Positions 1,709 through 27,836 of a stretch of DNA of 40,921 nt are shown here, one piece after another (position 1 is the first letter of the stretch; each line of letters starts with the position of its first letter). Below the pieces are notes generated by a model. The model ran no database searches. It saw nothing but the letters and a program-made list of their open reading frames with translations, and was not told where the DNA came from. Made by a program: the position numbers and the translations under genes. The stretch covers positions 1 through 40,921 of the IMG/VR virus record IMGVR_UViG_2740892440_000004. One strand, 5' to 3'. The stretch is from a virus (Duplodnaviria > Heunggongvirae > Uroviricota > Caudoviricetes).

Positions 1709-1870
1709 AACCGTGGCAGGAGGTCCGGACTGAAAAAACTGCTCAGGACATTATCGGCGGTGGACGCACGGGTAGTCTGTAAACCGAACCGACTGGGGCG
1801 CAGTATGTGGCATCTTGTCGTGCTGTTGGAGGAGCTGTGCAAACGTGGTATTAACTTTCGTGCTCTGGCC
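1709..1870 (+). pseudogene. serine recombinase (Pin/Hin/Gin invertase family) internal fragment
   Basis: translation GLKKLLRTLSAVDARVVCKPNRLGRSMWHLVVLLEELCKRGINFRAL matches the central conserved region of DNA invertases (..GDTLVVWKLDRLGRS..LxxELxxRGIxFRSL); N-terminal catalytic Ser region and C-terminal HTH absent. Confidence 0.55.
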
Positions 1871-2276
1871 CAATCTATATTTGCCCAACAATGGGGGGAC
1901 GAATGCTGTAAAAGTAAAAGAATCTGCGATCTCAAAGTTATTGTGTGATTTTTATGTGAGCAGAAGATATTCATCAGAAACGATTATGTAAATCATTTTA
2001 TTTTGCCGACGACCTGATTGTCGAAAGAAAAGAATACCCCCGTATTCCCTGAATAGATTGACTTTTTTATCCAACCATACTTCAGCGCACTGCGTTTAAA
2101 AAATGCTTCTTTCTTATGTGGAATATCATCATTTCATCATGATGTCTTTGATGAGCGGTGAACACAATACACTTGCGCTGTCTCTTCAGGATGAATCCCC
2201 TGGTCTGGTGCCTGTGGCTGATGTTGCAGCAGAGCTAAGGTCGCTTAAACGCTACTCAGTATTCACTTTTCAGAGG

Positions 2277-5200: not shown

Positions 5201-5541
5201 ATTTATCCAATGGCATGGAATCGAAATCAGTCGATACCCGCAGTTTATATCGTGAACTGGGTGCAACGCTGAGTTACAACATGCGTCTGGGGAACGGTAT
5301 GGAAGTTGAGCCGTGGCTGAAGGCGGCTGTGCGCAAAGAATTTGTCGATGATAACCGGGTGAAAGTGAATAGTGACGGTAATTTCGTCAATGATTTGTCG
5401 GGCAGACGTGGAATATACCAGGCAGGTATTAAAGCCTCATTCAGCAGTACGTTAAGCGGGCATCTTGGGGTGGGGTATAGCCATGGTGCCGGTGTGGAAT
5501 CCCCGTGGAACGGGGTAGCTGGTGTGAACTGGTCGTTCTGA
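2277..5541 (+). pseudogene. AIDA-I-type autotransporter adhesin, interrupted by a frameshift near 5170-5183
   Basis: RBS plus ATG at 2277; signal-peptide-like N-terminus; approx. 900 aa of degenerate GG-x-Q-x-V-x-GG / T-T-I-x-GG beta-helical repeats; C-terminal ...GVNWSF ending in aromatic residue typical of OM beta-barrels; passenger frame stops at 5186 and continues in +1 frame (ORF 5215-5541). Confidence 0.7.
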
Positions 5542-5702
5542 CCATCAACGAAAAAGCCACATCTGTGGGCTTTCATGTCACCAGGAGCCGCGGCTCCTTT
5601 GCGTATCCTTTTATGTCTCTTCACCGTCTGGTCGGTGTCCTGCTGAGACTGCTAACTTCCTGTTTTTATTGGTGTTGTCCTTATACCGTCCAATCATGAT
5701 TG

Positions 5703-5720
5703 GCTGGCGGAGTCTGAATT
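5703..5720. repeat. degenerate att-like repeat (gctggcggagtctgaatt); copy 2, probable distal boundary of the P4-like element
   Basis: near-identical to 1537-1554 and related to the tmRNA 3' end fragment at 18123-18167. Confidence 0.3.
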
Positions 5721-5878
5721 TGTATGTTATATCTATGTTTTAATTGGTTATTTATTTAAGTTGTTTTTGTTTGTATACCTAAGCGTATACCAATAGCGGG
5801 GTGCAATACTTATTGAACTTTAAAAAAATCACGCTAAATAGGTCTTCTATATTCAAAAAAACTCTTTTTTCAATAAAT

Positions 5879-5957
5879 TGTTCACACTGTTCACTTTGGA
5901 TTTTTACCATTCAAAATCAAGGAAATAGAAGTTAACTGTACGGTGAAGAGTGAACAG
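5879..5957. repeat. iteron-like octamer cluster (TGTTCACA, TGTTCACT, GGTGAAGA, GTGAACAG), possible P4 crr/ori-like alpha-binding region
   Basis: four copies of a TGTTCAC-type octamer in both orientations within 80 bp immediately beyond the 3' end of the alpha gene; recalled P4 ori/crr iteron is TGTTCACC. Confidence 0.35.
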
Positions 5958-5980
5958 ATAACTCTACATTCTTGTGCCAG

Positions 5981-6010
5981 CAAAAATAAAACCCGGCATC
6001 AGCCGGGTTA
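5981..6010 (-). terminator. rho-independent terminator downstream of the alpha operon
   Basis: perfect hairpin acccggc-atca-gccgggt followed on the minus strand by a T-run (plus-strand A-run 5982-5990). Confidence 0.5.
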
Positions 6011-6017
6011 GTTGTAA

Positions 6018-8351
6018 TTATTTGATTGTTGGCTCATCGCACTTGGGTAGCCAGTCTGCATTACTTTCCTCTTTTAAAGTGAGGTTAGTCTGCATTCCCT
6101 GATTAGTTCGCCGTTTCTCATAATGTAGCCCGTACTCCTTCAGCATGACTGGCAACCCTTTGCCAAACATCGTAAGACTCAGGGTGTTTTTATATCCATT
6201 AGCCTCCATGTATACGAGGTAGGCATGGTAAAGGTAGGTACGTGGCTGGCGTGGGACAATATTGGCGTTCCCCATAAACATGCCGTTGGTGTCAGGTAAT
6301 GCCTCAAGATAGCCACAAAAATCAAATGCTGGATCAGCATCACGCTTGATGGTGAGAGCCTCATCAGAATTCTGCTGCGACTGAAGCAATGTTCTGGCGC
6401 TCATCGGATCGCTGAAACGCTGCATGAGCTGGCGAACAATCACAGCCAGTTCTCGTGCAATTTTATCTTTCAGCTGCGGATCGCGTTCTTCCGGTGCTAT
6501 CTGCTCAGGAAAATGCAGAATAACTCTCCTGCGGGACACACCACCACTGCGATCAGTGAAGCGCATAGGATTATTATTTACGGCCAGGATAACCGCCGGA
6601 ATATGTGTTGAATAAGCATTCTGATATTTGGGGTCCACCGATACCGCATCGCCACCAGTTATAGCCTTAAGCCCGGCGCCGTCGCCGCTCCACTTCTCCT
6701 GATCAGGCAGGCGAATAAGAGAAAAACCTATCAGAGCCGCACGTTCTCGCGGGGACTCCAGCGTTTCAATGGTCGCAGAGGTGGCGTTATCCTCTCCAGC
6801 AAGCATGGTCGCAATTTCAGCCAGAATACTTTTGCCACTTCCACCAGGGCCAGTCACTTCCAGAAAGAGCTGCCAGTCATAGCGATTCGCCAGCACCATA
6901 AATAACGCCGCAAGAATAATGTCGCGTTTTTCTGGCTTGTGTCCGGCAGCCCGGTCCAGCCAGCGCCAGAATGCCGGGGCATGAGTTTCAAGCGTTTCCC
7001 CCTCTACCGGTGGCGTGAAATCGACTTCACACAGGGTACGCAGCCAGTTCTCTTTACAGTGCGGACTAAACAGCCCTGTTCGCGTATCGAGGACGCCATT
7101 ACGAAAACCGATCAGATGACGTGCCGGATTTTGCTGCTGCGGAACAATTAACTTTAATGTTTCCACCAGTGAAGCAATTTTTCCTGAGGAAAACGGTGCA
7201 CCGAGGCGCTGGAAAAGGGCTGCGACATCTCGGGCAAAATCTGACTGAGAAATCACTTTCCACGCTCCAGACTCGTAGCGGGATAAAAGCTGCCCGTTCG
7301 GATCAACCGCCAGTGCATCCCTGTAATGCTCCCGAACCCTCTGAGCTTTTTCGCTGACACTCATCGCTGTGAATTCTGCTTCACTCATTGTGTCGAAAGG
7401 ACTGGCGTTATGTGGCTTCAAAGCCTCAAGAATTGCCTTCCGGGTGGATTCCTCTCCGTATTGGGTAAGCGCATCATTCCAGTCACCAAAAACCGGTGGC
7501 AGCACAATGTCACACTGACACGCTTTTGCAGCAGTTTCAGCCCTGTTCTGGCCTGAACCATTCAGATCGCGGTCCGCTGCAATAATTAACTGATATCCCG
7601 GATACTTGTTATGGGCAACGCTGGCCAGAGAAAGAAAGTTGACCGACGAAAATGCCACCATGACGGCTTCTCCTGTCAGATGACGAATGGTAAGCGCCGT
7701 GGCGTAACCTTCCGCAATCCACATCCTTCTTACAGAACTCCCGCCCCCTTCTATCAGATGATAGGCCTCCTTAACCTGACCTCCTTTAAGAAAACACTTG
7801 CTACCATTGCCACTGATAAGCTGAATATTCACCAGTTCCCCGTCAGCGTTATAGAGCGGGACGATCAAATCACCGGGGTGGAACATCACCCCACCGGTTT
7901 TATGACCTGAAGTCAGCTCATGGCAAATATGCTCCGGGAAACCTTTATGTGTAAGATAAGTATTTCCGGCAGATTCACGCGAGACTTGCAGTAGTCGCGC
8001 GGCAAGTGCTGCTGCCGCCTGTTTCCCGCCATCTGTATCTGCGGTTGACGTCCAGACTCCAGAAGAGGCTGAAGACAGACTATGTGTCAGTCCATGTATC
8101 CTGTCTGCTGCTTCACTGATATCCACATTCAGTACCTTGCTGACAAGCGCTAAACCGTCCCCAGCCCCGCACTGGTTGCAGAACCATGTTCCACGTCCTT
8201 CCAGATCGTCGAAGCGAAAACGATCTTTACCGGCGCAGACCGGACAAGGCTGATGGCGATTTTTCAGTATGTTCATACCCAGCGCTGGCAAAATCCGCGC
8301 CCAGTGACCGCGGGCAGCCTTCACGGCCTGACTGACTTTCATTCCTGACAT
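6018..8351 (-). CDS. P4 alpha-type primase/helicase (replication protein)
   Basis: Zn-finger primase motif CPVCAGKDRFRFDDLEGRGTWFCNQCGAGDG, Walker A GPGGSGKS; approx. 777 aa; start set at the ATG preceded by GAGGGAG rather than the upstream alternative start in the ORF track. Confidence 0.9.
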   Translation of the reverse strand: MSGMKVSQAVKAARGHWARILPALGMNILKNRHQPCPVCAGKDRFRFDDLEGRGTWFCNQCGAGDGLALVSKVLNVDISEAADRIHGLTHSLSSASSGVWTSTADTDGGKQAAAALAARLLQVSRESAGNTYLTHKGFPEHICHELTSGHKTGGVMFHPGDLIVPLYNADGELVNIQLISGNGSKCFLKGGQVKEAYHLIEGGGSSVRRMWIAEGYATALTIRHLTGEAVMVAFSSVNFLSLASVAHNKYPGYQLIIAADRDLNGSGQNRAETAAKACQCDIVLPPVFGDWNDALTQYGEESTRKAILEALKPHNASPFDTMSEAEFTAMSVSEKAQRVREHYRDALAVDPNGQLLSRYESGAWKVISQSDFARDVAALFQRLGAPFSSGKIASLVETLKLIVPQQQNPARHLIGFRNGVLDTRTGLFSPHCKENWLRTLCEVDFTPPVEGETLETHAPAFWRWLDRAAGHKPEKRDIILAALFMVLANRYDWQLFLEVTGPGGSGKSILAEIATMLAGEDNATSATIETLESPRERAALIGFSLIRLPDQEKWSGDGAGLKAITGGDAVSVDPKYQNAYSTHIPAVILAVNNNPMRFTDRSGGVSRRRVILHFPEQIAPEERDPQLKDKIARELAVIVRQLMQRFSDPMSARTLLQSQQNSDEALTIKRDADPAFDFCGYLEALPDTNGMFMGNANIVPRQPRTYLYHAYLVYMEANGYKNTLSLTMFGKGLPVMLKEYGLHYEKRRTNQGMQTNLTLKEESNADWLPKCDEPTIK

Positions 8352-8365
8352 GATGCAGTTCTCCC

Positions 8366-8689
8366 TCAGTGTAAAACCGGCTTTATAATGTGACGGACGC
8401 ATAACTCATCCATTACGGCTATTCCGAGCTGGGAGAGTGCGGGGCAGGACATTAGAGGACCGGATTCCATCAGGTCTGAAAGCAGGGCGCAGGCGATTTC
8501 CATGCCTTTTGTTTGCCCGTGCTGTCGCAGATAAAAACCTTCAAGCTCACGGGCAATGGCGGTTTCAATTTCATCCAGAGTGAGCTGCAGGTGGCGGTTG
8601 TGCTGATGGCAGATACTCAGCCAGGCGCAGGCAACCGCGCGGCGATATAACGCCAGCCGAAGTGAGAGGGGAAGAGTGCGTGATTTCAT
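8366..8689 (-). CDS. hypothetical protein (107 aa) of the satellite early operon
   Basis: ORF whose start overlaps the upstream stop (ATGA) and whose end overlaps the alpha start. Confidence 0.5.
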
Positions 8690-8913
8690 TGCACCACCTC
8701 CTTGTTCATCAGGTCATCCTGGCAACGCTGTACCACGCCATCAAGCTGTTCTGTCATCAGATAAATCAGGGAAACCAGTTGCTCACATTGAGCACCTGCA
8801 GGTTTTTCATAGCAGTCCTGAAGAACAGCCATTCCGGTGACAAATTCCCCCACGTTACGAAGATGCTTGAGGCGGACAATATCGTCATAAGAAATTGCGG
8901 CGTGATTCATCAC
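8686..8913 (-). CDS. hypothetical protein (75 aa) of the satellite early operon
   Basis: ORF coupled by ATGA overlaps on both sides. Confidence 0.45.
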
Positions 8914-9101
8914 ATCACCTCCCCGGCAGGCAGCCGTGCAGAAAGGGAGAGCACATAATCACGGACCAGCGAAAGGCGTGCAAAGCGCTCATCGCAGGCC
9001 ACGGTGCGAAGCATACAGATGCGGGGTTGAGTGTCAGCACGGCGGATTGCGGCAAGCACAAAGACATATTGCGGGTAAAACGGGGTGAGGGTTGTAGCCA
9101 T
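8910..9101 (-). CDS. hypothetical small protein (approx. 63 aa); the longer 183-aa ORF in the track is probably not real
   Basis: GGAGG upstream of an internal ATG; the long version would span a terminator-like hairpin at 9308-9333. Confidence 0.3.
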
Positions 9102-9307
9102 GATGGCAGCCTCCATTGAGTAGCGGTTATTGCTACCACCGGAAACGCCAATTTCACTGGTGGCAGCCCGAACGGGGTTGGCGTAACCGGCCTCAATGGA
9201 TACCGGCCAGCCCGAAGGCTGCCCCGCCCGGACTGCCATTATCTCGAAAGAACCACGGTGTACGCATAAACACCACAGCCTGGAAAATGGGTGTGCCAGA
9301 GCTTCGA

Positions 9308-9333
9308 CGAAAAAAAAGACGCTTGGCGCGTCT
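9308..9333 (-). terminator. rho-independent terminator downstream of the alpA-like gene
   Basis: hairpin agacgc-ttggc-gcgtct followed on the minus strand by an 8-T run. Confidence 0.4.
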
Positions 9334-9460
9334 GGTGTCGCCATTGAGTTTCGCGGAACGCCAATTCCGGCTGCCGATTTTGCGGCAGCGGAAAAACTAT
9401 ACCTGGAAATGACTGCAGGATGCAAGCCAGAAAAATGGGGATTAATGCGTTCAGGCATCA

Positions 9461-9721
9461 TTATGCATCACATCCCCGTCCGCGGGCACTTATACGATCC
9501 GCCATCCATGCGCTTACCTCTGACTGTGCCCAGGCAACATTTTTACCACCAAGTGGGATCTGCTTCGGGAAAGCATCGCGGCTTATCAGGTCGTATATAG
9601 TTGAGCGGGACAAGCCGCATAAATGCATCACCTCGGGAAGACGTAAAAATCGCTCATGCTGGTTCAGCACAGGAAATAATGGCGCAGCCGGAGCTGGCGC
9701 AGAAACAGAAATATCATGCAT
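9461..9721 (-). CDS. alpA: AlpA-family prophage transcriptional regulator / excisionase-like DNA-binding protein
   Basis: 86 aa with HTH segment [39 protein letters not shown] characteristic of AlpA/Vis-type regulators of P4-like elements. Confidence 0.75.
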
Positions 9722-10283
9722 TTATCTACCCTCTTTAATTCCTTCATCAGTCCGGATAAATCCCCCCGGATTCAGGTAGTTCCTTATTATGTATATATTT
9801 CTCGCTTACGCACCCATTATTTATTTAGCGTCACATATTGATTTAATGGAATTTAAAACTATATCAAACCACATAAAATGGCATGATAGATATTATGTCT
9901 GCGAACTATAAATACAGGGACATTAATAGGAACTAACTTTCATCCAGGGGTTACTACCCCATAAGTCATAGAACTTAATGGTACTGAAACCGCAACCCAT
10001 TCAGCAGGGATGCACAATTTCTACATATGGCTTTACATTGCAAACCTAACTTCAGGATATACTCATGAATTGCATCAAGCTCAGAAGAATTAGAACCGCA
10101 TAAAATCAATAACCACGCATTCTTAACCTAAAAATATATCCAAATAAATTCATAAAAGACCGAGCAGTTCTAGTTTTATAAAAATCAGATTGAAATGCAA
10201 CACCAGGGAAAGGGGGGAATCATGTTATTTCCCGGCAAAGAAAAATCGTCTATTTCATCATCTGTTGAATACTACTGAAGAGT

Positions 10284-10480
10284 GGTGAATAGTTGTGAGG
10301 AACAATAATGAAATAATCATTCGGAATAAAAATTTCACTTTTGATGAAAAAAAATCATAAATCACGCTACCTTCCGATGAACACTCATGAACAGTCACTG
10401 AATACTGCCTTGTCAACCCTTCACCTCTTAACTAGCTGTATTATCAATTTTTTTATCAAAGTGAACAGTAGTGAATAGTA
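10284..10480. repeat. second iteron-like cluster (GGTGAATA, ATGAACAG, GGTGAAGG, GTGAACAG, GTGAATAG) in an AT-rich non-coding region; possible ori-like site
   Basis: at least five TGAAC/TA-type octamers in a 200-bp ORF-free segment about 4.4 kb from the cluster at 5879-5957. Confidence 0.3.
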
Positions 10481-10544
10481 TTTATTAAAGGAAAGTTGAA
10501 GATCAGACATGACACATTTCTCTGGCTAGCCAGAACAAGGTCAT

Positions 10545-10562
10545 TGTTCTGTCACTGACACA
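10545..10562 (+). promoter_or_regulatory. TGT-N12-ACA element (Ogr/Delta-dependent late promoter motif) upstream of the sid-like operon
   Basis: TGTTCTGTCACTGACACA about 75-90 bp upstream of the sid-like start, matching the P2/P4 late-activator site consensus. Confidence 0.5.
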
Positions 10563-10702
10563 ATCCCCCTCGGTAGTGCGCTTGTATGGGCATCGGCACA
10601 ATTGACACGACAACAAAACACTACCGGAGCATTCATGACTACTGTTAACCAGATCTCTGATGCAAACATTACATCCTCCCTCCCGCCGAAAATTCGCGAA
10701 GC

Positions 10703-11386
10703 GTGGAAAACGTTAAGGCAGCAAAAGCTGTCTGGCAGGAAGAACGGCGAAAACAAACTGAAGCTGCTGCAATGATTGAAACTATCCGTAAACGTCAGGA
10801 AGATACAAAAACGGAAACGCAGGCGCTTAATGATGAATGGCGAAACCTGTTTCGTGAGAATCAGGGAAATATGACACCACGCATGAAAAAACTGCGGGCA
10901 GAAATCGCCCTCGGACGCGAAACACTGGATGAGTTCGAAGATTTGCTGGCAGCTCAGGTGGCAGAAAATGAATTCCTGCCCTGGAAAACTGCGGATGCTG
11001 CAAACCACTACATCAGCGAACATAATCGCCTGATTGAAACTCATGCAGTGTGGCTCTGGAATGAGTTTATGAAGGAACACGGCCAGAAACTTATTCAGAT
11101 CCTTGGACTGTTGAAAATGACTCTGGGCCGAAGCGCTTCTGCTGTTATCGGTGTAGTTCATACCGTAAACGACCCCGAAAGTGTGCTGAAGCAATTTATC
11201 AGCGAGCAACTCACCACTCCGGCACTGTCCTGTAACGTATCTTCAACGGATGATATTACCCTGCCGGGGATCAGCATTTATGCGGACGATAAAGCCATCC
11301 AGGATGCCAGACAATCCCCCAGCCCTGCAGCGCGTTCACGGATGCTTAAACAGCGTGACATGGTTAAAGGGGGCGAGAAGAAATGA
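10703..11386 (+). CDS. putative Sid-like capsid size-determination (external scaffold) protein; probably starts at ATG 10635 with a frameshift near 10705
   Basis: first gene of a +strand operon followed by psu and delta; coiled-coil-like Glu/Arg/Ala-rich sequence; ATG 10635 has a GGAG RBS and reads into this frame if one base is restored. Confidence 0.45.
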   Translation: MENVKAAKAVWQEERRKQTEAAAMIETIRKRQEDTKTETQALNDEWRNLFRENQGNMTPRMKKLRAEIALGRETLDEFEDLLAAQVAENEFLPWKTADAANHYISEHNRLIETHAVWLWNEFMKEHGQKLIQILGLLKMTLGRSASAVIGVVHTVNDPESVLKQFISEQLTTPALSCNVSSTDDITLPGISIYADDKAIQDARQSPSPAARSRMLKQRDMVKGGEKK

Positions 11387-11937
11387 ATGCCGGAACCATT
11401 ACTCAGGAAGCTCTCAACGATTACCGCTCGGCGATAAAAAGCTGGCTGACACTACGTAATACGCAAAGTACCTACCAGCTTCGTCTGGCGGCTCTGCTGA
11501 ATACTGAAGAAAAACCGGCAGCATATGCCAGCCAGCTTGAGGAGCTTCGTGAGCGTCTTGCTGTCCTCGAATGGCAGATTAACTGTGCTGCACGGGATGG
11601 TCTTTATGCTCACCAGATTGTGCTGGAGAGTTGTGTTACAAGCGCAACGGAAAACTTCATGAGCGAGCATGGTGATGCACTCACTGACGCACTGGCTCCT
11701 TTTCTTTGCGCTCCATACGGGCTTGAGGCGGCAATGAAAATATTACGAACCGCTGTAGCCCGACAAACGGAAGTGCGTACTCCGGTAATTTCAGCAGCAT
11801 ACAAGAGCATTATCGACGAAACCGGATTAACGGTGGATGCATCAATGTACGCTGATGCTTCAACCAGTTTCACCCCGGCACAACATAAAGTTTTCCTGGC
11901 CCGCCTTAACCGACTTAATGAAAAAGGAGGGTACTGA
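11383..11937 (+). CDS. psu: Psu-like polarity suppression (capsid decoration) protein
   Basis: 184 aa; ATGA overlap with upstream gene; segments ...MSEHGDALTDALAPF... and ...FTPAQHKVF... resemble P4 Psu as recalled. Confidence 0.7.
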   Translation: MNAGTITQEALNDYRSAIKSWLTLRNTQSTYQLRLAALLNTEEKPAAYASQLEELRERLAVLEWQINCAARDGLYAHQIVLESCVTSATENFMSEHGDALTDALAPFLCAPYGLEAAMKILRTAVARQTEVRTPVISAAYKSIIDETGLTVDASMYADASTSFTPAQHKVFLARLNRLNEKGGY

Positions 11938-11938
11938 T

Positions 11939-12211
11939 ATGGCCCTGAAGTGTCCTGAATGTGGGACGGTCGCTCACGCCAGAACCAGCGCCTATGAAGC
12001 TCCATCGGTTAAACGCTCATGGTATCAGTGCCAGAATCTGGAATGTTCCTGCACATTTACCGCTCTGGAAAGCGTGGATACGATAATTATGAAGCCTTGG
12101 CGCAATGAACAGGAATCAGACAAAGAACAAATGCCAGAAAAACAACAGCAAACTCTCAACCGCTATGGCTCCGCGTCAAAGCTGTCAAGCCGTCAGCTAA
12201 TTCCTGTCTGA
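11939..12211 (+). CDS. Delta/Ogr-family zinc-finger late-gene activator
   Basis: MALKCPECGTVAHARTSAYEAPSVKRSWYQCQNLECSCTF matches the Ogr/Delta C-x2-C...C-x4-C pattern (CPxCxxxAHARTS...YxQCxN). Confidence 0.8.
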   Translation: MALKCPECGTVAHARTSAYEAPSVKRSWYQCQNLECSCTFTALESVDTIIMKPWRNEQESDKEQMPEKQQQTLNRYGSASKLSSRQLIPV

Positions 12212-12234
12212 TTAGCAAAATACGCCCACGTAGT

Positions 12235-12259
12235 CCCGGTCCAGTACCGGGATTTTTTA
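12235..12259 (+). terminator. rho-independent terminator after delta
   Basis: hairpin cccggt-ccagt-accggg followed by ATTTTTT. Confidence 0.55.
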
Positions 12260-12289
12260 CGCCTTTTCCCTGGCTGGCCTGAAGGCGTA

Positions 12290-12445
12290 TGAGTGCATAT
12301 CTATAGCGCATGAAAACGCATGAGTCTCATGCGCCATTTTTGACGCGAAAGCCCTTGTGTGGTGGCTTCTGAGACGATTTACGGGGTGCATGAAAACCAG
12401 TCTGTTAAGCGAAGCGGGCAGGCGGGCGGGGCAGCGCACGCTGTG
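12290..12445. other. cos-like packaging site of the P4-like satellite (candidate)
   Basis: approx. 150-bp non-coding block homologous to 26830-26990 (shared ggtgcatgaaaacca and aagcgggcaggcg); core GGCGGGCGGGGCAGCGCAC at 12421-12439 resembles the recalled P2/P4 cohesive end GGCGAGGCGGGGAAAGCAC. Confidence 0.4.
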
Positions 12446-12636
12446 TATGGTCAAAGTAACTTTTAACTTTCAATGAGTACCTGATTGAAAGAATCGTTTA
12501 TCACGTTAAAGCGATAACAATGATTTTAAGCAGCGAGTGTGGTGTAAGTATCATTGTCGAGTAAAAATGTTGCAAGCTATTGAAATAAGTATATATTGCA
12601 AATGATGAGGAAAATAAAATATGCAAGGACCTACTC

Positions 12637-13578
12637 ATGGATGCACTGCATGTCGCGCTTGAAAATCTGATTAGAGATGATGGTCAAACACTAAATAGTT
12701 ATTTTAGTGAAGTTAAAGTTAATTCATTGATTGAAAATACAAATGCAACTTGTCATTTTCATTGCCTTAATCTTGATGGCAATGGACGTCCTCGGGTAGA
12801 CGCGTTAATCCAATTCTTGAACGATAAAGTAGTTGATTATGCTATTCCAAGGAAAAAAATCAATGAGGCAGTGCAATATTTTAATGAAACACAATCAACA
12901 GCGAAAATAACAAAATTAGCAAATCAAGCAAAAAAATTATTTACTAGGCTTGCAAATAGTGGCGAAGGCGGTGAATTTATTCTTTTTTTATTTGCAGAGC
13001 AATTCCTTAGATTTCCACAAATTATTTGCAAAATGAGCCTGAAAACGAGTTCTCAAATGCATTACCATGGTGCAGATGGAATACATATAGGCGTAGATAA
13101 AGATAATAAAAAATTATGTTTATACTGGGGCGAGTCTAAACTCTATTCCAATCTGAGCAAAGGTATTTCTGAGTGTATGGATAGTATAGCTCCATTACTT
13201 CAAAGTTCTATGGGAATAGAAGGCGCTGAGACACGTGATATGCAGTTGCTGGAGTCGCACTTAAATGTTGATGATATAGAACTAGAACAAGCGTTGAAAA
13301 GATTCTTAGATCCTGATAGCCCGGATTTTAATAAATTGGAATACAGAGGAATATGCTTAGTTGGGTTTGATCTTAAAGATTATCCACAAGGGCCCAGTTC
13401 AATTGATATCAGTGAACTAGTTGCTTTGATTAATACTAAAGTCGGGAAATGGTCAACTAGTGTGCAAGGTGGTATAGTTAATAAAAAACTTGATCGCTTT
13501 GCTATGCATGTTTTTATTCTTCCTTTTCCTTCAGTAAAAGCATTTAGGGCTAGTTTAATTAAAGCATTGGAGAGTTGA
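12637..13578 (+). CDS. cargo protein 1 (313 aa) with a PD-(D/E)xK-like nuclease motif; candidate defence effector
   Basis: low-GC ORF; segment HGADGIHIGVDKDNKKLCLYWGESK has D...D...ExK spacing typical of PD-(D/E)xK nucleases. Confidence 0.6.
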   Translation: MDALHVALENLIRDDGQTLNSYFSEVKVNSLIENTNATCHFHCLNLDGNGRPRVDALIQFLNDKVVDYAIPRKKINEAVQYFNETQSTAKITKLANQAKKLFTRLANSGEGGEFILFLFAEQFLRFPQIICKMSLKTSSQMHYHGADGIHIGVDKDNKKLCLYWGESKLYSNLSKGISECMDSIAPLLQSSMGIEGAETRDMQLLESHLNVDDIELEQALKRFLDPDSPDFNKLEYRGICLVGFDLKDYPQGPSSIDISELVALINTKVGKWSTSVQGGIVNKKLDRFAMHVFILPFPSVKAFRASLIKALES

Positions 13579-13579
13579 A

Positions 13580-15514
13580 ATGTCGTTGCGAGATTTATCT
13601 GGGTGGTTGATTAAGAATCAAGGATTCTTAAGAAAATATCAGGCATTAGTCGCTAACTCGATAAAAGATCAATTTCCAGAGTTAAAATCAGATGTAATCC
13701 CACAGATTAGTTCTGAGGATGTCGGCTATCTTTTAACATGTGCTAGTTCTTTGGCTTTCTCAAGTGATGAGAAATGCCAAGATGCAGCCTTAAGGATTGC
13801 ACAGTATTGCTTATTGAATGAAAAAAGTGAAGCAAGAAAAGATAGTGCTGCATTAATTCTTGATTCATTATCTAATAATCCAGCAATACAACTTGCTGAA
13901 AATAGGGGGTATCTTAACCCTGATTTCGAAGAAAGATTACCCTTAAAGGCTCAGTTAGAACTAACTAAAAGAAAAATTCTATATACAATTGAAATAGATG
14001 CTGATAAGCATATTTATGCTAATAGGTTTCAATCAGAGTTTTGGGATGCGGTACAAGAAAACTCATGGGTTAGTGTCTCTGCTCCTACCTCTGTAGGAAA
14101 ATCATTTATCCTGGAATCTTGGGTGGAGCAGTTTGTAAAAAGAAATAAGAATTGCTTAGTTATTTATATCGTACCAACAAGGGCATTGATTTCAGAAGTA
14201 TATTCTGAGTTGCAAAAACGTTTGGATCCTAATTTAACAAATATAGTTAATATTCAGACACTACCATTGAGTAATGTATACCAGAGCGAAAAATCTAATG
14301 TCTTCATATTTACACAGGAAAGATTAAATTTATTCTACAATCATTTCTCACAAATTCCAAAGATAGACGTCTTAGTTGTTGATGAAGCACACAAGATCGG
14401 TGATGGTGGAAGAGGTGTTATTCTTCAACATGTAATTGAACTGACTTGTCTAAATAACCCTGATTCAAAAGTTATCTTTGCAAGTCCTTTCACCTTAAAT
14501 CCTGAAATATTGCTCAGTGATGCTCCAATATTAAAAAACAAAAGAACTATAAAAAGTGACTATGTTACAGTTAATCAAAATTTAATATGGGTAGAACAAA
14601 AACCACGCAAGACCAAAGATTGGTTGATGTATTATTTTGCAAACGGTGAAAAACGCGAGTTAGGAAACTTTTCTTTAGAAAATGCACCATCTCCTGAAAG
14701 TAAAAGATTGCCTTTTGTAGCTCTTTGTTTAGGTAAGGGGGCTTCTGGTAACGTAGTTTACGTAAATGGAGCCGCTGAAGCAGAATCTACTTCCAAGCTA
14801 ATATCTGCAAGTATAGAAAATGAGACTGAGGATGAAGAAATTTTAGCTCTCGTTGAGCTTAGTGAGACAATTATACATAAAAATTTCGCATTAAATCGCA
14901 CTCTAAAAAAGAGAGTCGCTTTTCATTATGGCAACATGCCTTTAATAATAAAGGGCGAGATTGAACGATTGTTTAGTAAAGGTAAGATTGATTTTTTAAT
15001 TTGTACCTCAACTTTAGTTGAGGGCGTAAACATGGCTTGTAAAAATATTTTTATAAGAGGCCCTAAAAAGGGTAATTCAACCCCGATGCGAGAAGAGGAT
15101 TTTTGGAATCTTGCTGGCAGAGCTGGTCGTTGGGGAAAAGAATTCCAAGGTAATGTCATCTGCATCGATAGCGACAATGAAAAAATTTGGAATGGAGAGC
15201 CTCCAAAAACCAAAAAAAATATATTTATAACTCGCGCCACGGATGCTATTTCCCATGACATGGATAAGTTGGTTTCCTATATTTTTTCAGAGCATCATTT
15301 TGGTATGTCTGAGCGGAATCCTAATCTCCAGAGTCTATTTAGTTATTTATGTTCATCATTTTATTTTTATAATGGCTTGGATAATAATCCTTACATGGAA
15401 AAGTACAATATAAAAAATATCGATGTTTTAAATGAAGCAATATTTGATGTTTTTGATTCTTTAACTTTTCCACACGAATTGGTTGTGCGGCATCCTGGTA
15501 TAAGCCGCTTTTAA
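13580..15514 (+). CDS. cargo protein 2: superfamily-2 DEAH-box helicase (644 aa)
   Basis: motif I APTSVGKS, motif II VVDEAHKI, motif V TSTLVEGVN, motif VI NLAGRAGRWG; starts 2 bp after gene 1. Confidence 0.8.
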   Translation: MSLRDLSGWLIKNQGFLRKYQALVANSIKDQFPELKSDVIPQISSEDVGYLLTCASSLAFSSDEKCQDAALRIAQYCLLNEKSEARKDSAALILDSLSNNPAIQLAENRGYLNPDFEERLPLKAQLELTKRKILYTIEIDADKHIYANRFQSEFWDAVQENSWVSVSAPTSVGKSFILESWVEQFVKRNKNCLVIYIVPTRALISEVYSELQKRLDPNLTNIVNIQTLPLSNVYQSEKSNVFIFTQERLNLFYNHFSQIPKIDVLVVDEAHKIGDGGRGVILQHVIELTCLNNPDSKVIFASPFTLNPEILLSDAPILKNKRTIKSDYVTVNQNLIWVEQKPRKTKDWLMYYFANGEKRELGNFSLENAPSPESKRLPFVALCLGKGASGNVVYVNGAAEAESTSKLISASIENETEDEEILALVELSETIIHKNFALNRTLKKRVAFHYGNMPLIIKGEIERLFSKGKIDFLICTSTLVEGVNMACKNIFIRGPKKGNSTPMREEDFWNLAGRAGRWGKEFQGNVICIDSDNEKIWNGEPPKTKKNIFITRATDAISHDMDKLVSYIFSEHHFGMSERNPNLQSLFSYLCSSFYFYNGLDNNPYMEKYNIKNIDVLNEAIFDVFDSLTFPHELVVRHPGISRF

Positions 15515-16161
15515 TGCAAAACCTTTGGGATAGATTTTCGCGGGATACAAACAAACCTGTAGAGAGATTACTGCTTTCTGAACCTGGTAGTAATGATGCG
15601 TTAGATTCATATGTATCCGCATTCTCTAGAATTAGTGATACTCTGAGTAAGAAGCTAGGTTATAATTCAAAAGGAGCTTACGTACAGGCCTTGTTAGTTT
15701 CCAAGTGGATGAAAGGTTATCCCCTAGCAAGATTGATCTCGGATAGAATAAGATATAACAAAAAGAAAAATATTGTTTTCAAAGAAGCGACTTTAATACG
15801 AGGGGTTATGAAGGATGTTGAAGAGATCGCTCGCTATCAAGCTCCAAGGCTTTTAGGATGTTATAATGATTTATTAAAAAGCTTTTATCTTTCGATAGAT
15901 CGCACAGACTTAGCAAAAGATGTTGAAGATATCGGTGTTTATTTAGAACTGGGTGTAAGTTTAAAAACTCAGATTTCACTAATAGGGCTTGGCTTTTCAA
16001 GAACTGCTGCTGTAATGATTTCAGAGCTTATTCCTAATGATAGTTTAGATGAGGAAGAATGCATTAATTGGATTAAGGACAATAAAGTTGACATGGAAGA
16101 ACTGCCACAATTAGTTCAAAACGAAATACATAATATATTTCGTAACTTTTGGGTACAATAG
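15514..16161 (+). CDS. cargo protein 3 (215 aa), unknown function; coupled to the helicase by TAATG overlap
   Basis: low-GC ORF immediately following the helicase in a different frame. Confidence 0.6.
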   Translation: MQNLWDRFSRDTNKPVERLLLSEPGSNDALDSYVSAFSRISDTLSKKLGYNSKGAYVQALLVSKWMKGYPLARLISDRIRYNKKKNIVFKEATLIRGVMKDVEEIARYQAPRLLGCYNDLLKSFYLSIDRTDLAKDVEDIGVYLELGVSLKTQISLIGLGFSRTAAVMISELIPNDSLDEEECINWIKDNKVDMEELPQLVQNEIHNIFRNFWVQ

Positions 16162-16192
16162 TCTTATTTAGACGATTTTTTAAACAATCAAT

Positions 16193-16240
16193 AGAGAAGT
16201 TTTTGAATTTTATCATTCTTCCAGTAACAAAAACTTCTCT
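16193..16240. terminator. long-loop hairpin between convergent cargo genes (possible bidirectional terminator)
   Basis: 12-bp inverted repeat agagaagttttt / aaaaacttctct separated by 24 nt, flanked by T-runs. Confidence 0.3.
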
Positions 16241-16253
16241 TTTATAACACCGC

Positions 16254-16711
16254 TCAGGCTATTCCAGAATAGGCTTTGCTTACTTCACTATGCCTTGTGC
16301 CGCAATGCCTCAAAATAACAAGGCCATGTTGCAGTAACGCCTCACTACGTTCAGGTTCAAACCATTTCCCGTTAAATTTTCCTCCGTGAAAAAGATTGTT
16401 TCTTACACGGCGGATTAACAAAAAAAGAAATTTTGCTAAATCTTTTTCTTGTGGTAAAGAATCATCCAAACTAAAGAGTCATCTTCTATGATTTGTTTTT
16501 TGGGTGGGTGTTCTTTAAAGTAGGTGATAGCAGCAATTAGCTCTGGATCAGTTGTGTTATTTATGATTTCAGAAACTTGCTTTGCATACTCATCCCAGTT
16601 CGCTTTAGCATCTTTTATTTTATGATGAAGTCCACATGCCTTAAGGCAATATTCATAACGTGAAAACTCTCTAAAGAATTCATAACATAAATTATCTAGA
16701 TTATTCTCCAT
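16254..16711 (-). pseudogene. HEPN-like small protein (Rx4H motif), split into two ORFs by an apparent 1-bp G-run contraction
   Basis: ORFs 16436-16711 and 16254-16469 overlap; restoring one G in tttgg-atg fuses them into approx. 160 aa; C-terminal part contains IRRVRNNLFHGG, i.e. R-x4-H as in HEPN RNase motifs. Confidence 0.45.
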
Positions 16712-16740
16712 GAACTATATCTCCATGTATAACAAGTTAA

Positions 16741-17940
16741 CTAATATTGATTGCGCTCGTACACTTTTTGGCCCCACCAATTCATAAGTCCTATTCGTTG
16801 CTCAAGGTAAGTTGAACGATTATATGCTCTGCGCACTTCATTTTTATCACTATGTGCAAGAGCAGCCTCAATTACATCTGCATTAAAACCCGCTTCATTT
16901 AATGCGGTGCTGGCAATTGAACGCAATCCATGAGCAACCAATCTACCACCAAATCCAATCCTTTTTAAAGCAGCATTTGCCGTCTGGCTATTCATTGGTT
17001 GCTTTGGGTCATTCCGACTCGGGAAAACATGTTCACGATGGGCACTGATTAGCTTCATCACATCAAGAATCTCTAATGCCTGAGGAGATAGAGGGACTAT
17101 GTGTTCCCGCTTAGCCTTCATTCGTTCAGCTGGGATAGTCCAGAGCTTTGCATCGAGATCGAGCTCAGCCCACCTAGCACCGGAAGCCTCAGAAGGACGA
17201 ACTAGAGTCAGGAGTTGCCACTCAATGAGGCAGCGAGTCGGAACAGACAAATTTGACATGACGAGAGAACGCATCAGCATAGGCAATTCTTCTGGGCGCA
17301 ACGTAGGCATATTTTGTTTTTTTGGCTTCTCAAAGGCCATTCCAATGCCTGATGCTGGATTGGCATCAATAAGACCAGTATTTACGGCATAAATCATTAT
17401 CTCGTTAACACGCTGCACCAACCGGCGCACCGTCTCCAGCGCCCCACGAGCTTTGATCGGTTCAAGGGCTTCAACCAGTGTTCGGGCTTTGATTTGCTGG
17501 ACAGGGATCTCCCCGATGGTGGGGAATACGTCTTTTTCCAGTGAACGCCATATATCTTTAGCGTAATCATGGGTAACGCTTTTGCTTTTGAGCTGGAACC
17601 AGTTAGCGGCGACCGTCGAAAAAATACTGTCCAGAGCGATTTGCTGCTGTTCCTCTGCAACTTCAGCTTGAATTTGCGGGTCGATTCCGTTGGCTAATAG
17701 GGCAAGGTAATCTGCTCTTAACCCTCGGGCATCAGCAAGAGAAAGGGCAGGAAAAGCACCAAGTCCCATCATAGTCCGCTGTTTTGTTGCTGGGCGTTGA
17801 TAGCGAAAGCGCCAGAGTTTCTTGCCGCTAGTTTTCACTATCAGGAAAAGCCCATCGCCATCATGCAGCGTTAGATCCTTCTCTAACGCTTTCGCGCGCA
17901 GAACTTCGGTGTTGGTCAGGGGGCGTGTTGTCCGTGCCAC
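16741..17940 (-). CDS. int: P4-type tyrosine integrase
   Basis: 399 aa; catalytic segments AHGLRSIASTAL (HxxR) and RAYNRSTY (Tyr); positioned next to the tmRNA-derived att fragment. Confidence 0.9.
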   Translation of the reverse strand: MARTTRPLTNTEVLRAKALEKDLTLHDGDGLFLIVKTSGKKLWRFRYQRPATKQRTMMGLGAFPALSLADARGLRADYLALLANGIDPQIQAEVAEEQQQIALDSIFSTVAANWFQLKSKSVTHDYAKDIWRSLEKDVFPTIGEIPVQQIKARTLVEALEPIKARGALETVRRLVQRVNEIMIYAVNTGLIDANPASGIGMAFEKPKKQNMPTLRPEELPMLMRSLVMSNLSVPTRCLIEWQLLTLVRPSEASGARWAELDLDAKLWTIPAERMKAKREHIVPLSPQALEILDVMKLISAHREHVFPSRNDPKQPMNSQTANAALKRIGFGGRLVAHGLRSIASTALNEAGFNADVIEAALAHSDKNEVRRAYNRSTYLEQRIGLMNWWGQKVYERNQY

Positions 17941-18050
17941 TGTGGCCGCTCCTTCATGAATTGGTATACGCTTTTAGGTATACATCCTACCGTATACCGA
18001 AACGTATACCAATAATCATCGGATTTAGCCGGATGTTCTCGGACAACGAC

Positions 18051-18088
18051 AAACACAAAAAAGCCCGCAGCTTGTGCCATGCGGGCTT
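18051..18088 (-). terminator. rho-independent terminator between the att fragment and the satellite integrase
   Basis: 9-bp stem aagcccgca / tgcgggctt with 10-nt loop, followed on the minus strand by TTTTGTGTTT. Confidence 0.4.
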
Positions 18089-18122
18089 TCTGTACTTCAC
18101 CGGACGTATCCGGATCATTATT

Positions 18123-18167
18123 TGGTGGAGCTGGCGGGAGTTGAACCCGCGTCCGAAATTCCTACAT
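18123..18167 (-). other. 45-nt copy of the tmRNA (ssrA) 3' end: attachment-site junction between the P4-like element and the 186-like prophage, not a complete tmRNA gene
   Basis: reverse complement reads ATGTAGGAATTTCGGACGCGGGTTCAACTCCCGCCAGCTCCACCA, the T-arm/acceptor/CCA end of enterobacterial tmRNA; match stops after 45 nt and upstream sequence is unrelated AT-rich DNA. Confidence 0.8.
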
Positions 18168-18252: not shown

Positions 18253-19314
18253 TTAATCCTCTGCCGCCAAAGTGCCGCCATCATCAACTGTCACCGGTTT
18301 CTCCATTACGTATGCTGACCATTCAGGAGAATAGAATGGTTGCAAAAATTTAGAAAATTGTTCTGTATCAAATTTAATTTCACCAATGTACAAGTAGTTA
18401 TATATATTACTGTAGTTTTGAAGCTGAAATCCGTAAGCTAGTTTTAATATCTTTTTAGATAGATAAAATGCAGCCTCAAGTGATTCGGCTAACATTGATT
18501 CTGTAGGGGTGAACGTTCTTATTTTAGTGCCGTTGATTTTTAACTCTATATAGGCTATCGAGATACAATCTACGCATAAAGTATCTAATAATTTAGCTAT
18601 GTTATATGAAATTGTATTTAATCTGGTAAGGTAATCTTCTGCATTTGAATGGGGTGTAACCTTATCTTTTGATAAGTTATTATTAATGGTATCTAGGATT
18701 GACAATATGCTTTTTTTAAAGTTCTCGTCTGGTGAATAATTGGATGTGATATCCATTGACGATTCTGTATATATATTGGAATATAATAAGTATGGGTTTG
18801 AGATTTTAATTTCATGAGTTGTTAGTATTTTAATTTTGTTGCTATCATTGTAATTATAATATTTTGATGCGTCATCTACAAAGCTTTGCATCGTAAAGCT
18901 TGATATTTCTTTAATTTTATCTACGAAATTTTTCTCATGAGCAAAATGTCTATCGATTGCATTTTTGATTTCAGATGAATTAATTTGTGCTTCGGTTTGT
19001 ATCGTTCTGTGAATGTTATTTACTATGGAAGCTAATGGTACAGAACTTGCGAGTATCAATAATGGGAATTTGCTTATCTCATAGAATCTGGCATATCCGT
19101 GAGCAGAAAGAACAGGTATTTTACCAAACCATGCAAATGCTCCAAAATAAATGAATGACAGCAGTGGTACTGCAATTGAAATCCAAAATAATTTCTGTTG
19201 AAATAAATTTCTTTTATCGAGAATGTACCACTTTTTATATATTGATACAAACGCAAAAAGAATAATTGCCAAAATATACACAATAATTCCAGTAAAGCTA
19301 GTATTAATGTTCAT
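18253..19314 (-). CDS. low-GC membrane protein (353 aa, three N-terminal TM helices plus approx. 250-aa soluble domain); moron co-transcribed with the phage integrase
   Basis: start ATG overlaps the integrase stop (ATGA); hydrophobic segments FTGIIVYILAIILFAFVSIY, LFWISIAVPLLSFIYFGAFAWF, FPLLILASSVPLASIV; AT-rich relative to neighbours. Confidence 0.7.
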   Translation of the reverse strand: MNINTSFTGIIVYILAIILFAFVSIYKKWYILDKRNLFQQKLFWISIAVPLLSFIYFGAFAWFGKIPVLSAHGYARFYEISKFPLLILASSVPLASIVNNIHRTIQTEAQINSSEIKNAIDRHFAHEKNFVDKIKEISSFTMQSFVDDASKYYNYNDSNKIKILTTHEIKISNPYLLYSNIYTESSMDITSNYSPDENFKKSILSILDTINNNLSKDKVTPHSNAEDYLTRLNTISYNIAKLLDTLCVDCISIAYIELKINGTKIRTFTPTESMLAESLEAAFYLSKKILKLAYGFQLQNYSNIYNYLYIGEIKFDTEQFSKFLQPFYSPEWSAYVMEKPVTVDDGGTLAAED

Positions 19315-27827: not shown

Positions 27828-27836
27828 GGTGATGCT

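What the first reader, a model, noticed from the sequence alone, without database searches (positions are those of the whole stretch)
12637..16161. Satellite cargo: nuclease-like protein + DEAH helicase + third gene (Hachiman-like architecture)
The low-GC cargo sits between the satellite cos-like site and its integrase, the position of the non-essential region in P4. Gene 1 has a D...D...ExK segment (HGADGIHIGVDKDNKKLCLYWGESK) compatible with a PD-(D/E)xK nuclease fold. Gene 2 is an SF2 helicase with motifs I, II (DEAH), V and VI. This two-component layout resembles Hachiman (HamA effector + HamB helicase), but the third, TAATG-coupled 215-aa gene is not part of the canonical description. Alternatively genes 2 and 3 are one longer helicase split at the T-run junction (644 + 215 = approx. 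860 aa).
Basis: partly seen in the sequence, partly recalled or inferred. Interest (0 to 1): 0.7.

Follow-up and report, generated by a model that had tools for sequence, protein, structure and literature searches.

The report
Hachiman defence operon, helicase gene artefactually split
This is an ordinary, already-described two-gene Hachiman (HamA nuclease + HamB helicase) anti-phage system carried in the known defence hotspot of a P4-like phage satellite of E. coli; the apparent "third gene" is just the tail of the helicase, cut off by a one-base deletion that is almost certainly a sequencing/assembly error.

Summary
The three ORFs exist exactly as described. Gene 1 (12637-13578) is HamA: Pfam HamA 2.9e-61, PADLOC HamA1 9.5e-136, invariant D147/E166/K168, and a predicted fold that matches only solved HamA chains. 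Genes 2 and 3 are one HamB helicase. They cover positions 1-648 and 652-860 of the same 864-position HamB profile. Re-inserting one C at 15505 (GCCGC to GCCCGC) gives an 860-aa protein identical to WP_016809719, which occurs on 682 public contigs.

The split is most likely technical. Every indel between this window and its closest relatives is a lost G or C in the window: 11 events across chromosome, satellite and P2-like prophage. These break eight genes, including P2 replication, portal, lysozyme and tail-fibre genes, with about 100% amino-acid identity on both sides of most breaks. The only other carrier of the truncated allele is a 5.5-kb Logan contig of one SRA run. That contig has a further deletion of the same kind that the window lacks.

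Hachiman in the P4 psu/delta-integrase hotspot is already published. Low interest.

The parts
12637..13578 (+). hamA: DUF1837/HamA PD-(D/E)xK effector nuclease, 313 aa, intact. Catalytic-core candidates are D147 (nt 13075-13077), E166 (13132-13134) and K168 (13138-13140).
   Evidence: Pfam PF08878 HamA 2.9e-61, full length. PADLOC HamA1 PDLC00163 9.5e-136. 100% identical to WP_016809718. D147/E166/K168 are invariant in alignment A1. AlphaFold2 model has pLDDT 86.8 and pTM 0.88. The top three Foldseek PDB hits are HamA chains 8zue_A, 8vxy_A and 8vx9_A, probability 1.00.
13580..15514 (+). hamB, 5' part as it reads in the window (644 aa): N-terminal helical bundle plus the RecA1/RecA2 SF2 (Ski2/Hel308-like) helicase core with all ATPase motifs. 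It ends at a premature TAA created by the -1 frameshift.
   Evidence: PADLOC HamB1 PDLC00186 1e-262, profile positions 1-648 of 864. Pfam DEAD 1.1e-19 and Helicase_C 5.5e-9. Residues 1-642 are 100% identical to the intact HamB of strain 190.
15505..15505 (+). Site of the one-base deletion that splits hamB: the window reads AAGCCGCTTTTAATG where all relatives read AAGCCCGCTTTTAATG.
   Evidence: Pairwise comparison with L001, L004 and L006. Re-inserting one C gives an 860-aa ORF identical to L001 HamB. Two metagenome contigs carry GCCCGC.
   Evidence: PADLOC HamB1 PDLC00186 6e-72, profile positions 652-860 of 864. 100% identical to residues 643-860 of the intact HamB. Intact HamB matches the profile end to end, 1135 bits.
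12570..12597 (+). Candidate sigma-70 promoter for hamAB (TTGCAA-16-TATATT), about 40 nt upstream of the hamA ATG. This is a consensus match only.
   Evidence: The number of promoter-like sites in the region is not above the shuffled expectation, so this is weak evidence.
16254..16711 (-). Convergent 152-aa gene of unknown function in the same low-GC cargo. In the window it is also broken into 91-aa and 71-aa ORFs by a C deletion at 16466. It is not a required Hachiman component.
   Evidence: Intact as WP_016809720 in relatives. Frameshift shown. No Pfam, NCBIfam or PADLOC family. Absent from Klebsiella P4-like satellites with hamAB in the same hotspot.
16741..17940 (-). P4-type tyrosine integrase of the satellite; marks the right border of the defence hotspot.
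   Evidence: Pfam Phage_integrase 7e-31, Phage_int_M and Arm-DNA-bind_3. 100% identical to WP_021552398.
11383..12211 (+). psu (11383-11937) and the ogr/delta-like gene, whose stop is at 12209-12211. The delta start of about 11939 is taken from the annotated start in relatives (L001:5440, WP_016809717, 90 aa), not from the longer overlapping ORF 11837-12211 listed mechanically in the window. Together they mark the left border of the hotspot.
   Evidence: ORFs. Annotated as polarity suppression protein and ogr/Delta-like zinc finger protein in identical loci. Hotspot definition from PMC13586616.

Best explanation
The block is a canonical two-gene type I (I-A) Hachiman anti-phage system, hamA-hamB, carried as cargo in the known defence hotspot between the psu/delta operon and the integrase. 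The host element is a roughly 12-kb P4-like satellite integrated at the ssrA locus of an E. coli chromosome.

By homology to the characterised systems, HamA and HamB form a 1:1 complex. HamB, a Ski2/Hel308-like SF2 helicase, holds the HamA PD-(D/E)xK nuclease in check while it surveys DNA. When HamB loads on 3' single-stranded or damaged DNA produced during phage infection, its ATP-dependent activity frees or activates HamA. HamA then degrades DNA indiscriminately, which is abortive infection.

The 'third gene' is the last 218 codons of hamB. It is separated from the rest by loss of one C at window 15505. That loss is most likely a consensus error of a low-accuracy assembly, so the real organism most probably encodes one intact 860-aa HamB.

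Shown here: family membership, the fold, conserved catalytic and ATPase motifs, the single-base nature of the split, and its membership in a window-wide deletion bias. Inferred from the literature, not tested here: the mechanism and the defence activity.
For: Identity of the genes:
- HamA: Pfam 2.9e-61 and PADLOC 9.5e-136.
- HamB halves map to profile positions 1-648 and 652-860 of one 864-position HamB1 model.
- Intact relative HamB matches that model end to end at 1135 bits.
- HamA model (pLDDT 86.8) hits only solved HamA chains with probability 1.00.
- D147/E166/K168 are invariant.

One base restores the gene:
- Adding C at 15505 reproduces the 860-aa HamB of strain 190 exactly.
- Twenty complete E. 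coli genomes carry the locus at 99.9% or more; none carries the deletion at 15505.
- Exact intact HamB is on 682 contigs and the exact 644-aa product on one.
- Both metagenome contigs with this junction read GCCCGC.

Artefact signature:
- All 11 indel events against the closest relatives are G/C deletions in the window. Six of these events fall in 18.2 kb that has only 5 substitutions against strain 789.
- They frameshift 8 genes, including P2 gpA, portal, lysozyme, tail fibre and integrase. Amino-acid identity is 100% on both sides for HamB and the 152-aa gene, and 92-100% on the flanks of the P2-gene breaks, consistent with the 0.9% DNA divergence from that reference.
- A rough chance estimate for this direction and base bias is about 1e-7.
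- The only other carrier, Logan contig SRR1599278_416, shares both satellite deletions and has a further C deletion in the integrase that the window lacks, so the calls depend on the assembly.

Context and mechanism:
- P4-like core genes flank the block.
- The same hotspot in Klebsiella satellites holds hamA plus one 859-aa hamB.
- Hachiman in P4 and the hotspot location are published (PMC13586616).
- Mechanism: PMC12278908 and PMC11914072.
Against: - An independent k-mer assembly of run SRR1599278 reproduces the 15505 and 16466 deletions. The deletion is therefore in the reads, not only in one assembler's consensus. If that run is accurate short-read data, the frameshift would be real. I could not look up the sequencing platform.
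- Loss-of-function alleles of this very operon that look real do exist elsewhere: ISKpn26 in hamB, homopolymer frameshifts and a nonsense change. Inactivation is not implausible a priori.
- No experiment here shows defence activity of this particular hamAB allele.
Confidence: 0.85

Rival explanations
1. The frameshift is real. In this strain hamB is a recent pseudogene and the Hachiman system is inactivated. HamA would be left without a functional partner, and is expected to be insoluble or inactive alone according to the ECOR31 work.
For: The deletion is seen in two assemblies, the window and Logan SRR1599278. Other disrupted alleles of the same operon occur in independent genomes: an IS insertion, an A-run frameshift, a nonsense change and hamA frameshifts. 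This is consistent with a fitness cost for an abortive-infection system triggered by DNA damage (PMC12278908).
Against: The same kind of G/C deletion also breaks seven other genes in 41 kb, with no other decay at most of the breaks. These include four essential genes of an otherwise 99%-conserved P2-like prophage and a satellite sid-like gene. At this rate, about one event per 3.7 kb, a whole genome would carry on the order of a thousand frameshifts, which is not viable if real. The Logan contig has an extra deletion of the same type that the window lacks. Defence pseudogenes are reported as under 1% of pseudogenes in P4-like satellites (PMC13586616).
Confidence: 0.1
2. The split is real and functional: a three-polypeptide Hachiman. 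The helicase core (644 aa) and the C-terminal domain (215 aa, re-initiated at the TAATG overlap) would be made separately and reassemble, or a programmed +1/-1 frameshift would produce the full-length protein.
For: The stop and an in-frame native Met codon overlap as TAATG, a layout compatible with translational coupling. The break lies downstream of all the ATPase motifs, which end at residue 517, so it may fall near a domain boundary.
Against: The ATG is simply Met646 of the intact protein. No relative has this arrangement: 682 contigs, 20 complete genomes and Klebsiella homologues all encode one ORF. No slippery heptamer or conserved frameshift signal is maintained, because the intact allele needs none. 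The window-wide error pattern explains the split without any special mechanism.
Confidence: 0.03
3. The helicase is a housekeeping repair or replication helicase (Hel308/Ski2-like) and the pairing with gene 1 is coincidental.
For: NCBIfam gives weak sub-threshold similarity to Hel308-type helicases (83 bits against cut-offs of 887-1216). PDB sequence hits include Hel308, Ski2 and Brr2.
Against: All those scores are far below the family cut-offs, whereas HamB profiles match end to end at 1135 bits. The gene is always adjacent to hamA in low-GC cargo inside mobile P4-like satellites, not in conserved chromosomal synteny. Similarity to Ski2/Hel308 is a known property of HamB (PMC12278908).
Confidence: 0.01

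Closest known systems
Type I-A Hachiman (HamA with DUF1837 only plus HamB), e.g. the E. coli DEC14B system tested in PMC11914072
   Same: Two-gene hamA-hamB operon. HamA consists of a DUF1837 domain alone and has a conserved (D/E)xK motif (E166-S-K168 here; E150/K152 in DEC14B). HamB is a DEAH-type SF2 helicase of about 860 aa with an intact Walker A motif. The best PADLOC models are HamA1 and HamB1.
   Different: Nothing architectural once the one-base deletion is repaired.
E. coli ECOR31 HamAB (PDB 8VX9, 8VXA, 8VXC, 8VXY; PMC12278908)
   Same: Same family and same HamA fold (Foldseek probability 1.00, TM 0.50-0.58). Same nuclease-helicase logic and a Ski2-like HamB with an N-terminal helical bundle. 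The mechanism is inferred from this system.
   Different: A distant subtype. ECOR31 HamB is 1174 aa with a DEGH motif and gives only a local sequence match (5.4e-12, residues 430-528). HamA is 13-14% identical, and neither phmmer nor the HamA profile search finds the ECOR31 HamA chains in the PDB. HamB here is 860 aa with DEAH.
HamAB/AbpAB with Cap4-fused HamA (type I-B; PDB 8ZUE and 9WH1)
   Same: HamB here is closest in sequence to 9wh1_B among solved chains (3.9e-58 over residues 115-815). The DUF1837 domain aligns weakly with 9wh1_A and 8zue_A.
   Different: Those HamA/AbpA proteins carry an N-terminal Cap4 nuclease and a catalytically dead DUF1837 (PMC11914072). Here HamA has no N-terminal fusion and keeps D/ExK.
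Defence hotspot of P4-like satellites, between the integrase and psu-delta-sid near cos (PMC13586616 and the work it cites)
   Same: Exact position, low-GC cargo, P4 core genes on both sides and integration at ssrA. Hachiman is explicitly listed as occurring in P4.
   Different: None. This is an instance of the published pattern.

Membership tests
Hachiman (HamAB), type I / I-A | HamA: DUF1837/HamA domain protein | tested here: met
   Pfam PF08878 2.9e-61 covering 2-230 of 230. PADLOC HamA1 9.5e-136 covering 3-312 of 314.
Hachiman (HamAB), type I / I-A | HamA adopts the PD-(D/E)xK-like HamA fold | tested here: met
   AlphaFold2 model with pLDDT 86.8 and pTM 0.88. The only Foldseek PDB hits with E<=1e-3 are HamA chains 8zue_A, 8vxy_A and 8vx9_A; the next hit is restriction endonuclease EcoO109I at E 0.02.
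Hachiman (HamAB), type I / I-A | Conserved catalytic D...(D/E)xK residues and no extra N-terminal effector domain (this distinguishes I-A from I-B/C/D) | tested here: met
   D147, E166 and K168 are invariant in 36 homologues. The protein is 313 aa and is covered end to end by the HamA1 profile. Residue-by-residue structural superposition on E138/K140 of 8VX9 was not done.
Hachiman (HamAB), type I / I-A | HamB: SF2 Ski2-like helicase with intact ATPase motifs, encoded immediately downstream of hamA | tested here: met
   PADLOC HamB1 at 1e-262 (N part), 6e-72 (C part) and 1135 bits for the repaired or intact protein. GKS, DEAH, TSTLVEGVN and GRAGR motifs are present. hamB starts 2 nt after the hamA stop.
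Hachiman (HamAB), type I / I-A | hamB is a single intact ORF in this sequence | tested here: not met
   As the window reads, hamB is split at 15505 by a one-base deletion. The evidence favours a sequencing artefact, but the sequence as given encodes a broken hamB.
Hachiman (HamAB), type I / I-A | Confers phage resistance that depends on the HamA nuclease and HamB ATPase residues | not testable with these tools
   Shown for other Hachiman systems (PMC12278908, PMC11914072) but not for this allele.
P4-like satellite defence hotspot cargo | Located between the psu/delta(/sid) operon and the integrase of an element with P4 core genes (alpha primase, AlpA-like, Icd/Ash-like, psu, delta, int) | tested here: met
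   Annotated identical loci, tblastn of core proteins onto the window, and the hotspot definition in PMC13586616.
   The 215-aa ORF is HamB residues 643-860. The only other cargo gene, 152 aa and convergent, is absent from homologous Klebsiella loci.

The most novel reading that the evidence does not exclude
The one-base deletion is real in this strain, and the two HamB fragments work together with HamA as a naturally split, three-polypeptide Hachiman. The fragments would be the helicase core and a C-terminal domain re-initiated at the TAATG overlap. A milder version is that the deletion is one of several genuine, recurrent loss-of-function events in satellite-borne Hachiman, which would indicate a fitness cost and would run against the published 'swap without pseudogenisation' model for P4 hotspots.
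Probability: 0.04. Interest if true: 0.4.

Novelty: already known. Interest (0 to 1): 0.1.

Why it matters
It matters mainly as quality control. The window comes from a consensus with systematic G/C single-base deletions, about one per 3.7 kb, so any split gene, TAATG-coupled gene pair or pseudogene read from this window should be distrusted. Biologically it adds one more instance of a well-documented pattern: type I Hachiman carried in the P4-like satellite hotspot. It raises no new question. The only mildly useful lead is that this same operon shows several independent disrupted alleles in public genomes. That could be used to ask whether satellite-borne Hachiman is costly to the host.

Tried and rejected
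- Sequence search of HamA against the PDB with phmmer, even at E<=10, found nothing. A 36-sequence profile gave only marginal hits to Cap4-fused HamA chains (E 0.03-0.2). The link to solved HamA structures needed a fold comparison.
- I tried to verify the G-rich 19-mer at 12421-12439 as a cos site. I searched for a second copy in the adjacent P2-like prophage and for the P2/P4 cos sequence as I remember it. Neither gave a match within 3 mismatches, so the cos assignment remains unverified.
- I considered the 152-aa convergent gene as a possible true third component. I rejected it as obligate because Klebsiella satellites carry hamAB without it. No family hit gives it a function.
- A programmed frameshift or functional split was rejected because no relative shares the split and the intact allele is overwhelmingly common.
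- A mismatch-repair-deficient or mutagenised strain as the cause of real G/C-run deletions was considered and rejected by inference. The runs are only 1-3 bases long, the events are exclusively deletions, and the implied genome-wide load would be lethal.
- The genome-contig scan for the junction found nothing.
Full report
**Observation.** The second and third overlap as TAATG. The block has 0.34-0.36 GC, against about 0.50 in the neighbouring satellite core genes.

**What the genes are.**
- Gene 1 is HamA. It matches Pfam PF08878 (HamA/DUF1837) at 2.9e-61 over the full model and PADLOC HamA1 at 9.5e-136.
- In an alignment of 36 homologues down to 43% identity, D147 (in GADG), E166 and K168 (in WGESK) are invariant.
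- An AlphaFold2 model built from that alignment is confident (pLDDT 86.8, pTM 0.88).
- The model's only significant Foldseek matches in the PDB are the HamA chains of the three solved Hachiman complexes: 8zue_A, 8vxy_A and 8vx9_A, probability 1.00. The next hit is a type II restriction endonuclease.
Plain sequence searches of the PDB were too insensitive to show this.
- Gene 2 carries every SF2 ATPase motif: GKS 173-175, DEAH 268-271, TSTLVEGVN 476-484 and GRAGR 513-517. It also matches Pfam DEAD and Helicase_C.
- Against PADLOC, gene 2 matches HamB1 model PDLC00186 at 1e-262, but only over positions 1-648 of 864. Gene 3 matches the same model at 6e-72 over positions 652-860. Genes 2 and 3 are therefore two pieces of one HamB.

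**The split is one missing C.**
- Twenty complete E. coli chromosomes carry this locus at 99.9% identity or more.
- In strain 190 hamB is a single 2583-nt gene encoding 860 aa, WP_016809719.
- The window differs at the junction by one base. It reads AAGCCGCTTTTAATG where strains 190, 789 and 1-62 read AAGCCCGCTTTTAATG.
- Inserting that C into the window gives a protein identical to the strain 190 HamB. The ATG of 'gene 3' is simply Met646 of the intact protein.
- The intact HamB matches the HamB1 profile end to end at 1135 bits.
The missing base lies in the C-run just before the T-run, not in the T-run itself.

**Real mutation or artefact?** I compared the whole window with its nearest relatives.
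- Over window 1-18167 against strain 789 (99.93% identity) there are only 5 substitutions but 6 indel events.
- Over the P2-like prophage against strain CV839-06 there are 4 more indels, plus one in the P2 integrase.
- Every one of these 11 events is a loss of G or C in the window: 2216, 5557, 10703, 15505, 16466, 18070 (two bases), 20153, 25362, 29439, 35617 and 40860.
- tblastn of reference proteins shows that eight genes are frameshifted. These are the sid-like gene, hamB, a 152-aa gene, the P2 integrase, the gpA replication endonuclease, portal, lysozyme and tail fibre.
- Amino-acid identity is 100% on both sides of the hamB and 152-aa breaks. It is 92-100% on the flanks of the P2-gene breaks, in line with the 0.9% DNA divergence from that reference.
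- A crude probability for 11 of 11 events being deletions in the window and all G/C is about 1e-7.
- A rate of one frameshift per roughly 3.7 kb, spread over chromosome, satellite and prophage, cannot be a real property of a viable genome. This last point is inference.
- The exact 644-aa product exists on only one other public contig, a 5.5-kb Logan assembly of run SRR1599278. The exact intact protein is on 682 contigs.
- That Logan contig shares the 15505 and 16466 deletions and has a further C deletion (GCCAC to GCAC) in the integrase that the window lacks. These deletions therefore vary between assemblies of what is probably the same data, as technical errors do.
- Two metagenome contigs containing this junction both read GCCCGC.
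- I put the artefact reading at about 85-90%.
- The main caveat is that the deletion is evidently present in the reads of SRR1599278, and I could not look up that run's platform.

**Context.**
- The flanks are a P4-like satellite: alpha primase-helicase, DUF5375, Icd/Ash-like, AlpA-like HTH, a sid-like Psu-fold gene, psu and ogr/delta. The hamAB cargo follows, then a P4-type integrase.
- In relatives the element abuts ssrA. A 23-nt direct repeat at 5773-5795 and 17992-18014 brackets about 12.2 kb.
- The published main defence hotspot of P4-like satellites is exactly this interval, between the integrase and the psu-delta-sid operon near cos. Hachiman is named among the systems found in P4 (PMC13586616).
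- Klebsiella P4-like satellites carry a 63%-identical hamA and one 859-aa hamB in the same slot, directly abutting the integrase. This shows the two-gene unit is complete without any third gene.
- The housekeeping-synteny scenario that would have refuted the defence reading is not met.

**Mechanism (inferred from characterised homologues, not tested here).**
- HamA and HamB form a 1:1 heterodimer through the HamB N-terminal helical bundle.
- HamB is a Ski2/Hel308-like DNA helicase and restrains HamA on intact dsDNA.
- 3' ssDNA or DNA damage arising during infection engages the helicase. ATP-dependent activity releases or activates HamA, which degrades DNA non-specifically and causes abortive infection (PMC12278908).
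- The subtype here is I-A in the scheme of PMC11914072: HamA is DUF1837 only with an intact (D/E)xK. That is the majority clade (86%). Its nuclease (E150/K152 in the DEC14B example) and Walker A residues are required for defence.
- Among solved structures, HamB here is closest in sequence to 9wh1_B (3.9e-58) and only distantly related to the 1174-aa ECOR31 HamB.
- If the frameshift were real, the 644-aa product would keep the ATPase core but lose the C-terminal region. In ECOR31 HamB that region helps form the nucleic-acid-binding cleft. The system would then most likely be dead.

**Comparison, novelty and verdict.** This is a member of a known family, in a known genomic niche, in a well-sampled species. 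Identical proteins are already annotated in RefSeq as 'HamA C-terminal domain-containing protein' and 'DEAD/DEAH box helicase'. The only unusual feature, the third gene, disappears on inspection. Novelty: already known. Interest: 0.1.

**Residual novel reading.** A genuine, functional split HamB, or genuine recurrent inactivation of satellite-borne Hachiman, gets about 4%. Different disrupted alleles of this operon do exist elsewhere:
- ISKpn26 in hamB of three related Canadian strains.
- An A6 to A5 frameshift in hamB in three Logan runs.
- A nonsense change in hamB in a fourth run.
- An A7 to A6 frameshift in hamA in RefSeq strains D3 and 4012.

Some of these may be homopolymer sequencing errors too. 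The IS insertion and the nonsense change look real.

Noticed in passing
window 2216, 5557, 10703, 15505, 16466, 18070, 20153, 25362, 29439, 35617, 40860: Systematic single-base G/C deletions (two bases at 18070) relative to all close relatives. They frameshift eight genes across chromosome, satellite and prophage. This is the signature of an unpolished, error-prone consensus, so other split-gene findings from this window should be distrusted.
   Followed up: yes
window 16254-16711 (- strand): A 152-aa convergent gene (WP_016809720 when intact) lies in the same low-GC cargo between hamB and the integrase. It has no Pfam, NCBIfam or PADLOC family. It is absent from Klebsiella satellites that carry hamAB, so it is an independent cargo gene of unknown function, possibly a single-gene defence or counter-defence.
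   Followed up: partly
window 27132-29005 (+ strand): Three co-directional ORFs (231, 215 and 173 aa) at GC 0.34 sit between gpA and the portal gene of the P2-like prophage, which is the published main P2 defence hotspot. They have no Pfam or PADLOC hits, so they are a candidate uncharacterised defence cargo.
   Followed up: partly
window 18253-19314 (- strand): A 353-aa ORF at GC about 0.31-0.33 lies between the satellite/ssrA-derived junction and the P2-like integrase. This att-integrase gap is described as a minor P2 defence hotspot. It has no Pfam or PADLOC hit, and the N-terminus looks membrane-spanning by eye.
   Followed up: partly
window about 5773-18014 and about 18200-40921: A P4-like satellite and a P2-like helper-type prophage are integrated in tandem at the ssrA locus. 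No intact tmRNA gene is found in the window (ARAGORN finds none). A 23-nt direct repeat at 5773-5795 and 17992-18014 brackets the satellite.
   Followed up: partly
L018 (strain AH04) 1381-5162; L008, L010 and L011 at L001 position 8913; L009 at 8914; L002 and L003 at L001 position 6431: Independent disrupted alleles of the same hamAB exist in other genomes: ISKpn26 inserted after about 141 codons of hamB; an A6 to A5 frameshift and a nonsense change in hamB; and an A7 to A6 frameshift in hamA (the 227-aa fragment is on 10 contigs). This may indicate recurrent real inactivation of satellite-borne Hachiman. It would contrast with the reported rarity of defence pseudogenes in P4, although the homopolymer cases could be sequencing errors.
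   Followed up: partly
window 12421-12439: The G-rich 19-mer GGCGGGCGGGGCAGCGCAC lies between delta and hamA, where the P4 cos site is expected. No similar sequence was found in the adjacent P2-like prophage part of the window, so the cos assignment is unverified.
   Followed up: partly
window 10635-11386: The gene upstream of psu (250 aa when intact, in the position of sid) has a weak Psu-fold Pfam match (1.8e-7). It is frameshifted in the window by the G deletion at 10703.
   Followed up: partly
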